1,721 nucleotides of DNA from Escherichia coli (GTDB lineage: Bacteria; Pseudomonadota; Gammaproteobacteria; Enterobacterales; Enterobacteriaceae): the NCBI RefSeq assembly GCF_003334815.1, contig NZ_QOWO01000095.1; one strand, given 5' to 3'. The notes under the pieces were generated by a model, which was given only the letters and a program-made list of their open reading frames with translations, ran no database searches and was not told where the DNA came from. This document shows positions 1 through 1,183 of this stretch, one piece after another. Position 1 is the first letter of the stretch. The number at the start of each line of letters is the position of its first letter. A program made the position numbers and the translations under genes.

Positions 1-43
1 TGCATGGTTACAGTGTGACTGTATTCCGGGAGATTCGCCGGCC

Positions 44-1183
44 ATGAATTTTGCTGCTCTTAAAAACAATACGGGTACTCTTTATCTGTCCAGTTTTAAT
101 CATGAGCATGCACCTGAATGCCCCATGTATCGTCAGTTATCCGGAAATGAAGAGGAAACATCCTTCGGAGCAAGCCGGCATCCCGTTAGCACCCGTATAA
201 ATTACAGAAACTTTTTACCACCTGATGACAGTAATTCTGTTATCAGACTGCAGGCCCGCTCTGCTTACCATAATGGTGAGCGCTCCTCCGTTCGCAAGAA
301 ACGTCCGCGCCTTGGCCGTTTACTCCTGTCGCTTATTGAAGATGCAGGGCTGAATAAACTGGATTCCCTGGCTAATCCCCGTATCCGGACTAATTATCGT
401 GAGTGTCTTGATGCCATACGGCAGGTTACACTACAGCAGGAGTATATTCGGGGAAGAGCCTTATCTGAAATTATCCATTTCCGGCCAGGAATGTCTGAAA
501 GGTCTCAGGAGCGGTTAATGGAAACGCTGGAGAATTCAGAACGACACTGGCCTGCCAGAAGAAAGCATATGTTCTTTCAGATTTTTATGGCGCAGCACAT
601 CTGTCGTGATGCTGTGGAAATTCACTGGGCGAACGGTAATATTCAGGTCATCAGACCTGTGCGGGGGATCAGTATTAATGGTGAAGCGCAGGGCGGAATA
701 CGTCCCCCTTACTGGGTTATTCTTGCTTTTTGCCGGAGTGCCGATGGCAGAATCATCTGCAGTGAAGGGTATGCTCATGCTCTTTATCAACTGACATGTC
801 CGGTGCCTGTGGACAGCAAACTGGAACGAAACACGCTCACTGCTCTTCTGAATGTGGCCAGCTGGCTTAAAAGAAAGCCAGGTACGCCGGAATTAAGTCT
901 GGAAAGGCCCCTGTTTGATACAGAAGTTTATGTTAATGGTGAAAAGAAATATGTACTGCCGGATTTCATTGTCACAGCAAGGGCTCCTGACGGAAAGACG
1001 GCCAGAGTGGTCATCGAAACGATGGGATATGAAGACAGTGATTACTGCGCGAGAAAATCCAGGCAGCATACCGGCATGAAGCAGATTGGTGTTCTGCATA
1101 CCGATCCACCGAAATGGCTGGATAACGATCATCCCCCTTTTAAGAAACATATGTACGGTGTTTTTATGCATCTCAGGTACTGA
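44..1183 (+). CDS. Uncharacterized protein, 379 aa; C-terminal region has a PD-(D/E)xK / Vsr-like endonuclease-type motif (tentative)
   Basis: Longest ORF in the window, ATG 44 to TGA 1181-1183, with no competing long ORF. A possible weak RBS, GGGAG at 28-32, lies 11 nt upstream of the ATG. The reading frame has no stop between position 2 and 44, so the true start could lie upstream of the window. Residues about 301-345 read YVLPDFIV...RVVIETMGYEDSDYCARKSRQH (D307 at nt 962-964, E325 at nt 1016-1018), the hPD ... hhhE pattern of restriction-endonuclease-like folds. I vaguely recall an unnamed backbone ORF (possibly called yagA) upstream of cib on IncI1 plasmids, but I cannot confirm this is it, so no symbol is given. 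Confidence 0.8.
   Translation: MNFAALKNNTGTLYLSSFNHEHAPECPMYRQLSGNEEETSFGASRHPVSTRINYRNFLPPDDSNSVIRLQARSAYHNGERSSVRKKRPRLGRLLLSLIEDAGLNKLDSLANPRIRTNYRECLDAIRQVTLQQEYIRGRALSEIIHFRPGMSERSQERLMETLENSERHWPARRKHMFFQIFMAQHICRDAVEIHWANGNIQVIRPVRGISINGEAQGGIRPPYWVILAFCRSADGRIICSEGYAHALYQLTCPVPVDSKLERNTLTALLNVASWLKRKPGTPELSLERPLFDTEVYVNGEKKYVLPDFIVTARAPDGKTARVVIETMGYEDSDYCARKSRQHTGMKQIGVLHTDPPKWLDNDHPPFKKHMYGVFMHLRY

What the first reader, a model, noticed from the sequence alone, without database searches (positions are those of the whole stretch)
1..46. 5' boundary of the upstream ORF is not secured within the window
The frame of the 44..1183 ORF stays open from position 2 to the ATG at 44 with no in-frame stop, and the only Shine-Dalgarno-like element (GGGAG 28-32) is 11 nt from the ATG, which is long. 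The gene may start upstream of the window, so the protein may be longer than 379 aa and carry an extra N-terminal segment.
Basis: seen in the sequence. Interest (0 to 1): 0.2.

Follow-up and report, generated by a model that had tools for sequence, protein, structure and literature searches.

The report
Window edge cuts known yagA gene

Summary
Window frame 2 is open from position 2 to the ATG at 44, GGGAG sits at 28-32, and the gap to the ATG is 11 nt.

- The window is 100% identical to IncI1 plasmids of the ColIb-P9 type.
- RefSeq annotates yagA there as a 448-aa protein (WP_001132032.1). It starts 164 nt before window position 1, behind an AAGGAG Shine-Dalgarno site.
- The ATG at 44 is internal Met70.
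- Homologues down to about 20-35% identity are 430-458 aa long and align from residue 1-3.
- Codons 1-69 are as conserved as the rest of the gene, and they are confidently structured in an AlphaFold2 model.
- Window 14-22 encodes the family-invariant Cys60-x-Cys62, the first half of a CxC...Hx3C putative zinc motif. A start at 44 would delete it.
- Met70 is Leu in most relatives.
- GGGAG is simply the codons for Pro64-Gly65-Asp66.

One point stays open: whether translation starts at Met1 or at Met3, 6 nt later.

YagA has no known function. It is a divergent relative of DUF1173 with a C-terminal fold like PD-(D/E)XK nucleases. Nothing about the boundary is new, so interest is low.

The parts
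1..1183 (+). 3' 1183 nt of yagA. This covers the last base of codon Asp55, codons 56-448 and the TGA stop at 1181-1183. The gene begins 164 nt upstream of the window.
   Evidence: The window is 100% identical to RefSeq plasmids where yagA is L001 3837..5183, 448 aa. The frame is continuous.
14..22 (+). Codons Cys60-Asp61-Cys62. This is the CxC half of the putative CxC...Hx3C zinc motif. It lies upstream of the ATG at 44.
   Evidence: C60 and C62 are invariant in the 17-sequence and 58-sequence family alignments. The same motif is described for DUF1173 in PMC3045609.
28..32 (+). The GGGAG read as a Shine-Dalgarno site. It is the last base of the Pro64 codon, the Gly65 codon, and the first base of the Asp66 codon (CCG GGA GAT).
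   Evidence: Sequence and translation. Gly-Asp is present at these positions in most of the closer homologues and appears as GD in the consensus of the 17-sequence alignment.
44..46 (+). ATG for internal Met70. It is not the start codon.
   Evidence: The position is Leu in 10 of 17 close relatives and 31 of 58 distant relatives. It lies in a predicted beta strand (residues 70-76) of a domain that begins at residue 4.
107..121 (+). Codons His91 to Cys95. This is the Hx3C half of the putative zinc motif.
   Evidence: H91 is invariant and C95 is at least 90% conserved in 58 sequences.
794..1180 (+). C-terminal domain with a PD-(D/E)XK-nuclease-like fold, about residues 320-448. It includes Glu330, Asp376 (962-964), Glu394 (1016-1018) and Lys407 (1055-1057).
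1210..1253 (+). Hairpin plus T-run resembling an intrinsic terminator, downstream of the yagA stop.
   Evidence: A 13-pair stem followed by TCCGGTTTTT. This is a consensus scan only.

Best explanation
The window begins inside yagA, a backbone gene of IncI1 (ColIb-P9/R64-type) plasmids. Translation starts 164 nt upstream of window position 1, at an ATG 10 nt downstream of an AAGGAG Shine-Dalgarno site, or just possibly at the in-frame ATG 6 nt later. The product is 448 aa (or 446 aa). The ATG at 44 encodes internal Met70, and positions 2-43 encode residues 56-69, including the conserved Cys60-x-Cys62. The 379-aa ORF is therefore an artefact of where the window was cut. The protein itself is inferred, not shown, to be a zinc-binding protein on mobile elements with a PD-(D/E)XK-nuclease-like C-terminal domain, related to DUF1173. 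Its function is unknown.
For: Extension of the sequence:
- The window matches 1094 E. coli records, nearly all plasmids, many at 100% identity.
- yagA is annotated as 1347 nt / 448 aa in three independent records.

Start site:
- AAGGAG lies at L001 3821-3826 and the ATG at 3837.
- The same SD with the same 10-nt spacing and the Met-x-Met start recurs in a homologue gene that is 58% identical at protein level.

Homologue N-termini:
- Homologues at 33-59% identity are 438-458 aa long and cover 99-100% of the 448-aa query.
- Representatives at 20-30% identity begin 'MKLVxK...', co-linear with residue 3.
- There are 49-69 residues (median 55) before the Trp57 column in all 58 sequences.

Conservation of codons 1-69:
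- Amino-acid identity equals that of the rest of the protein: 0.47 vs 0.47 in the 17-sequence alignment and 0.33 vs 0.28 in the 58-sequence alignment.
- Nucleotide identity follows the coding pattern (codon position 2 > 1 > 3) in three gene comparisons.
- C60 and C62 are invariant.

Structure:
- The AlphaFold2 model has mean pLDDT 89.1. Residues 1-69 score 89-96 and form strands and helices that continue into strands 70-76 and 81-87.

Relationship to DUF1173:
- The model matches DUF1173 models over its full length, with E of 1e-24 to 1e-29.
Against: - There is no direct evidence of the translation start here. No N-terminal proteomics, ribosome profiling or TSS data were available.
- The SD spacing at the annotated start (10 nt) is itself on the long side.
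- Among three close IncI variants, codons 1-69 carry 0 synonymous and 3-4 nonsynonymous differences, all in the variable stretch 19-47. That small sample shows no purifying selection, although it also shows no stops or frameshifts.
- Met3 rather than Met1 is the family-invariant methionine, so 446 aa cannot be excluded.
Confidence: 0.95

Rival explanations
1. The ATG at window 44 is the true and only start, giving a 379-aa protein. The open frame upstream would be fortuitous.
For: An ATG preceded by GGGAG at 11 nt. Several database gene calls start exactly at this Met: P0018, P0101 and P0173.
Against: - Of the shorter calls, only the 411-aa one (P0002, which starts at Met38) was traced. It lies behind an IS10-like insertion.
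- The calls that start at Met70 are short products (282, 248 and 102 aa) and were not traced.
- Residues 1-69 are conserved family-wide, including the invariant C60 and C62.
- Met70 is Leu in most homologues.
- A start at 44 would cut a confidently predicted domain.
- GGGAG is explained by the Pro-Gly-Asp codons.
Confidence: 0.01
2. Translation starts at the second ATG (Met3, L001 3843, 6 nt downstream of the annotated start), giving 446 aa.
For: Met3 is invariant in the 17-sequence alignment. It is the first residue of the more distant homologues, for example the Pectobacterium homologue P0107, whose AGAGGA SD lies 4 nt before that ATG.
Against: In the IncI1 sequence and in the Salmonella homologue locus, the SD is 10 nt from Met1 but 16 nt from Met3. 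Met1 is present in every member of the closer clade.
Confidence: 0.15
3. The gene starts still further upstream, at in-frame ATG L001 3813 (456 aa) or TTG 3768 (471 aa).
For: The frame is open back to TAA at L001 3684, and both codons are in frame.
Against: - Neither codon has an SD-like sequence upstream, and the AAGGAG would lie inside the coding sequence.
- No homologue carries such an extension.
- In the homologue loci, in-frame stops lie 18 and 10 codons upstream of the start. There is no start candidate in between in L004, and only a TTG without an SD in L007.
Confidence: 0.03
4. Both forms are made: the full-length protein plus a shorter isoform from internal initiation at Met70 that lacks the CxC motif.
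For: Only the presence of a weak SD-like GGGAG 11 nt upstream of an internal ATG. The same arrangement is kept in the Salmonella homologue.
Against: Met70 is not conserved across the family. The conservation of GGGAG follows from the conserved Gly-Asp residues. The truncated product would lack half of a predicted domain.
Confidence: 0.03

Closest known systems
YagA of IncI1 plasmids ColIb-P9 / R64 / pCol1B9 (RefSeq WP_001132032.1, 448 aa; Pfam PF27227 Endonuc-like_C)
   Same: The DNA across the whole window is identical. The neighbours are the same: the ProQ/FinO-family gene fopA (yafB) upstream and divergent, and the colicin Ia/Ib gene downstream. Published work calls it a backbone gene of unknown function (PMC7491321; PMC4541600).
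   Different: Nothing differs. The window simply lacks the first 164 nt of the gene.
DUF1173 (PF06666)
   Same: Length of about 400-450 aa, an N-terminal CxC...Hx3-5C putative zinc motif, and a C-terminal PD-(D/E)XK-related domain, as described in PMC3045609. The model is structurally similar over its full length to AlphaFold DB DUF1173 models, with E of 1e-24 to 1e-29 and TM 0.6-0.75.
   Different: The PF06666 HMM does not match YagA, and it matches only 1 of 58 family members, at E 0.019. Pfam places YagA in a separate family, PF27227. DUF1173 was reported to lack the acidic/Lys signature, whereas the YagA family keeps invariant Asp376 and Lys407 and near-invariant Glu394.
PD-(D/E)XK nucleases TnsA (Tn7) and Bax1 (DUF790)
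   Different: The scores are weak. There is no ExK triplet: the sequence is Glu394-Thr-Met396, and the conserved Lys407 sits on the next helix. The N-terminal two thirds of YagA has no counterpart in either protein.
E. coli K-12 chromosomal YagA (CP4-6 prophage)
   Same: Only the name. The plasmid name comes from the systematic ColIb-P9 ORF nomenclature (yaa..., yaf..., yag...). This is from my own knowledge.
   Different: K-12 YagA is an integrase-core (rve) type protein (my own knowledge, not tested here). No rve or any other Pfam-A domain is found in the plasmid protein.

Membership tests
IncI1 plasmid YagA (RefSeq 'protein YagA', PF27227 Endonuc-like_C) | Sequence identity to the annotated gene, in the same plasmid context | tested here: met
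   100% identity over 1721 nt to many IncI1 records. Features under the match are yagA and the colicin Ia/Ib gene.
IncI1 plasmid YagA (RefSeq 'protein YagA', PF27227 Endonuc-like_C) | Match to the PF27227 profile | tested here: met
   Precomputed PF27227.1 is listed for the 99%-identical cluster P0001 and for nearly all full-length homologues. The family name appears. The model is absent from the Pfam-A copy used by profile_search, so the match was not re-run independently.
DUF1173 (PF06666) | Significant match to the PF06666 HMM | tested here: not met
   No hit for YagA. One of 58 family members hits, at E 0.019.
DUF1173 (PF06666) | N-terminal CysXCys...HisX3-5Cys motif | tested here: met
   C60, C62 and H91 are invariant and C95 is at least 90% conserved (H-x3-C) in 58 sequences. 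The motif definition is from PMC3045609. Metal binding was not tested.
DUF1173 (PF06666) | Overall fold shared with DUF1173 proteins | tested here: met
   Foldseek against AFDB50 gives many DUF1173-annotated models at E of 1e-24 to 1e-29 with full-length alignments.
PD-(D/E)XK nuclease superfamily | Restriction-endonuclease-like alpha/beta core fold | tested here: inconclusive
PD-(D/E)XK nuclease superfamily | Catalytic signature D...(D/E)xK | tested here: inconclusive
   Asp376 (in the PDF motif) is invariant and Glu394 is at least 90% conserved. The x-K position is Met396, and the invariant Lys407 lies 13 residues later on a helix. This could be a migrated-lysine variant or an inactive site.
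PD-(D/E)XK nuclease superfamily | Metal-dependent nuclease activity | not testable with these tools
   Needs biochemistry.
E. coli K-12 YagA (CP4-6 prophage, rve integrase-core protein) | Integrase catalytic core (rve) domain | tested here: not met
   The Pfam-A scan of the 448-aa protein finds no rve domain. The only hit is a weak DUF790 match.

The most novel reading that the evidence does not exclude
The boundary question is settled, but the protein is not understood. YagA and its DUF1173-like relatives may be active zinc-dependent PD-(D/E)XK nucleases that act in plasmid or ICE maintenance, establishment or competition. They recur next to replication, partition and anti-restriction genes on unrelated mobile elements. 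The CxC encoded in window 14-22 would then be part of their DNA-recognition or metal site. A smaller unexcluded reading is a second, CxC-less isoform initiated at Met70.
Probability: 0.25. Interest if true: 0.4.

Novelty: already known. Interest (0 to 1): 0.05.

Why it matters
The practical value is correct annotation. A gene caller given only this window, or a contig broken or IS-interrupted inside yagA, will report a truncated protein. The 379-aa call would lose the invariant CxC motif and half a domain. The 411-aa call (P0002) traces to an IS insertion, and other database calls start at Met70. yagA is a recurrent insertion site for resistance cassettes in IncI1 plasmids (ISEcp1-blaCTX-M-55, PMC4541600; an ampicillin cassette, PMC8004404), so knowing the true boundaries helps in calling disruptions. 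There is no new biology in the boundary itself.

Tried and rejected
- NCBIfam, PADLOC and PHROGs scans of the 448-aa protein gave no hit.
- Pfam-A gave only a sub-threshold DUF790 match.
- A PDB sequence search with the family profile gave nothing meaningful; the only hit was PRPP synthetase at E 0.13.
- Rfam on the region gave only a chance-level hit to the S15 leader, E 0.96.
- The sigma-70 consensus scan found no + strand promoter upstream of yagA at its threshold. By eye there is a TATATT about 55 nt upstream of the ATG, conserved as TGTATATTTT in the Salmonella homologue locus. I did not pursue it.
- Synonymous/nonsynonymous counting among close IncI variants was too sparse to be useful and, if anything, unhelpful: 0 synonymous and 3-4 nonsynonymous in codons 1-69.
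- I considered whether the 411-aa database cluster P0002 (851 members) means that gene callers prefer Met38. I rejected this because the traced example lies directly behind an IS10-like insertion at about codon 17.
- I considered LexA control of yagA from the conserved TGTATAT motif. I rejected it because the second half-site is absent.

Full report
**1. Checking the observation**

The window contains a + strand ORF at 44..1183 of 379 aa. Translating positions 2-61 gives AWLQCDCIPGDSPAMNFAAL with no stop before the Met at 44-46. GGGAG lies at 28-32, and 11 nt (33-43) separate it from the ATG. Every coordinate in the finding is correct.

Fourteen stop-free codons are expected by chance about half the time. 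(61/64)^14 is about 0.51, by my own arithmetic.

**2. Extending the sequence**

A megablast against complete E. coli genomes finds the window in 1094 records: 1215 places on plasmids and 25 on chromosomes. Many of the matches are 100% identical over all 1721 nt. Three records were opened:
- NZ_CP024481.1 (L001)
- NZ_CP024152.1 (L002)
- the reference IncI1 plasmid ColIb-P9, NC_002122 (L003)

All three annotate 'yagA: protein YagA' as a 1347-nt CDS encoding 448 aa (WP_001132032.1).

Window position equals L001 position minus 4000. The CDS starts at L001 3837, which is 164 nt before window position 1 and 69 codons before the ATG at 44. Window position 1 is the third base of codon Asp55, and the ATG at 44 is Met70.

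The upstream sequence reads ...cATAAGGAGtgctttcattATGccaATGata.... An AAGGAG site at 3821-3826 lies 10 nt before ATG 3837, and a second in-frame ATG lies at 3843 (Met3).

The first in-frame stop upstream is TAA at L001 3684. The finding's stated refutation, a stop within a few codons of position 2, is therefore not met. Two further in-frame start candidates, ATG 3813 and TTG 3768, have no SD-like sequence, and the AAGGAG would lie inside them.

**3. N-termini of homologues**

A search of the 5.8-billion-protein collection returns 115 relatives. The full-length ones, at 33-59% identity, are 438-458 aa long and cover 99-100% of the 448-aa query. They come from Salmonella, Kosakonia, Enterobacter, Pantoea, Erwinia, Providencia, Pectobacterium and Cronobacter.

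An exhaustive phmmer search of 1.84 billion cluster representatives finds 531 relatives. Those at 20-30% identity are 420-460 aa long, and their alignments start within the first few residues of both sequences. Their N-termini read 'MKLVxKxxPRG..R.L...E..A', co-linear with Met3-Ile-Leu-Val-Lys-Lys-Asn-Pro-Arg-Gly of YagA.

Findings from the alignments:
- Invariant residues in the 17-sequence alignment include M3, L5, R16, L18, A25, L58, C60 and C62.
- Invariant residues in the 58-sequence alignment are C60, C62, H91, S327, E330, P358, D376, G397 and K407. W57, C95 and E394 are at least 90% conserved.
- Mean identity to YagA over residues 1-69 equals that over 70-448. The values are 0.47 vs 0.47 in the 17-sequence alignment and 0.33 vs 0.28 in the 58-sequence alignment.
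- Every sequence has 49-69 residues before the Trp57 column.
- Position 70 is Leu in 31 of 58 sequences and Met in only 16 (these last three points).

At the DNA level, three homologue genes show the same codon-position pattern in codons 1-69 as in the rest of the gene. For the Salmonella gene the identities at positions 1/2/3 are 0.68/0.77/0.48 in codons 1-69 and 0.72/0.74/0.41 elsewhere.

The Salmonella homologue locus has AAAGGAG, then 10 nt, then ATG-GCT-ATG. This is the same geometry as in IncI1, and an in-frame TAA lies 18 codons upstream with no intervening start. The Pectobacterium homologue starts at the Met3-equivalent, 4 nt after AGAGGA, with an in-frame TAG 10 codons upstream.

**4. 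What the finding's 46 bases encode**

Positions 2-43 encode Ala56 to Ala69. Positions 14-22 encode Cys60-Asp-Cys62. Together with His91-x3-Cys95 (window 107-121), these form a CxC...Hx3C motif.

The GGGAG at 28-32 is the junction of the Pro64, Gly65 and Asp66 codons (CCG GGA GAT). Gly-Asp is conserved in the closer homologues. The SD-like element is therefore a by-product of coding sequence.

**5. Structure**

AlphaFold2 run on the 58-sequence alignment gives mean pLDDT 89.1 and pTM 0.89. Residues 1-69 score 89-96. They form strands 4-7, 14-17 and 56-59 and helices 20-32 and 38-53, and these continue directly into strands 70-76 and 81-87. A start at Met70 would cut this domain in half.

Solved-structure comparisons are weak but consistent:
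- Foldseek gives TnsA at E 0.02, plus SfsA, Exo5 and a Cas4-family protein.
- All of these are PD-(D/E)XK enzymes.
- DUF790 (the Bax1 family) matches the C-terminal region in 6 of 58 members at E<=1e-3 and in 32 of 58 at E<=0.1.

Against AFDB50, the whole model matches many 'DUF1173 domain-containing' proteins of Alpha-, Beta- and Gammaproteobacteria at E of 1e-24 to 1e-29. Laganeckas et al. (PMC3045609) described DUF1173 as proteins of about 400 aa with an N-terminal CxC...Hx3-5C motif and a C-terminal PD-(D/E)XK-related domain of unknown function. YagA has the same architecture. It does not match the PF06666 HMM and sits in its own Pfam family, PF27227 'Endonuc-like_C'.

**6. Function**

No function is known. 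Gerovac et al. state that yafA, fopA (yafB) and yagA on pCol1B9 'encode proteins of unknown function' (PMC7491321). Another paper groups yafA, yafB and yagA as a 'plasmid stability region' by annotation only (PMC4541600).

Homologues lie on plasmids or integrative elements, next to maintenance genes:
- 1 kb downstream of an IncFII-type repA;
- 48 nt downstream of a Rep3 gene;
- in a ParA-ParB...ArdA/methylase block;
- beside Rep3, umuDC and ParM genes.

There is no constant partner gene.

My best inference is a zinc-binding, DNA-directed protein of mobile elements with a nuclease-like domain. I put this at about 60% confidence for the fold-level statement and much lower for catalytic activity. 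The acidic residues Asp376 and Glu394 and the Lys407 are conserved, but the canonical ExK triplet is absent: the sequence is Glu394-Thr-Met396.

**7. What remains open**

Met1 versus Met3 is unresolved. SD spacing favours Met1: 10 nt against 16 nt, and the same spacing is seen in the Salmonella homologue. Family-wide invariance favours Met3.

Close IncI variants show 0 synonymous and 3-4 nonsynonymous changes in codons 1-69, all within the variable stretch 19-47, and no stops or frameshifts. This sample is too small to weigh either way, but I report it because it does not help the case. No experimental start-site data were available.

**8. Verdict**

The thing described is a window-edge truncation of an already annotated gene. 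Novelty: already known. Interest: low.

Noticed in passing
window 1360-1721: The window's 3' end holds the colicin Ia/Ib gene start: ATG at 1462, product MSDPVRITNPGAESLGYD..., annotated as a colicin Ia central receptor-binding domain protein. A strong promoter-like site lies upstream: TTGACA at 1360, a 17-nt spacer, and TAAATT ending at 1388. A LexA-box-like CTGTATATGTATCCAT follows at 1393-1408. This fits SOS-regulated colicin expression (my own knowledge).
   Followed up: partly
window 1210-1253: A 13-bp-stem hairpin followed by a T-run lies 27 nt after the yagA stop. It looks like an intrinsic terminator separating yagA from the colicin promoter.
   Followed up: no
L017 1340-1545 (equivalent to L001 ~3885, about codon 17 of yagA, upstream of the window): P0002 represents a database cluster of 851 member sequences with a 411-aa 'YagA' starting at Met38. 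In the one traced example, the gene lies directly behind a DDE_Tnp_1 transposase, and homology to yagA begins abruptly at about codon 17, an IS10-like insertion. Other database calls begin exactly at Met70 (P0018, P0101, P0173), the same start as in this window.
   Followed up: yes
whole yagA gene (window 1-1183 and upstream): Literature reports yagA as a repeated insertion target in IncI1 plasmids: ISEcp1-blaCTX-M-55 (PMC4541600) and an ampicillin-resistance cassette (PMC8004404). The top hit H1 also has an IS3-family transposase splitting the match into two pieces.
   Followed up: partly
window ~536-1183 (C-terminal 216 aa): Swiss-Prot P04481, 'Uncharacterized protein in cib 5' region (Fragment)', 216 aa, is 88% identical to the C-terminal part of the model. 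It appears to be a historical fragment of the same gene from early colicin Ib sequencing.
   Followed up: no
L007 881-2991; L004 3971-7341; L009 5001-7745: YagA homologues on unrelated plasmids sit next to replication initiator genes: Rep3 48 nt upstream on the same strand in a Pectobacterium-type contig, IncFII_repA 1 kb upstream in Salmonella, and Rep3 adjacent in another contig. In IncI1, yagA is also about 3-5 kb from repA. A possible link to replication or maintenance is untested.
   Followed up: partly
L001 3484-3836 (intergenic, upstream of the window): A 353-nt divergent intergenic region lies between fopA (yafB, a ProQ/FinO-family gene) and yagA. The motif TGTATATTTT, about 50-55 nt before the start codon, is shared with the 58%-identical Salmonella homologue locus. 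It may be a -10 region, but the consensus scan called no + strand promoter.
   Followed up: no
L014-L016 codons 19-47 of yagA (upstream of the window): IncI-gamma/K1-type variants differ from the IncI1 sequence by 3-4 amino-acid changes (S19R, R34K, A39V, Q40L, L47I) and no synonymous change in the first 69 codons. The rest of the gene shows 6-9 synonymous and 6-7 nonsynonymous changes. This is a high nonsynonymous fraction overall for such close relatives.
   Followed up: no
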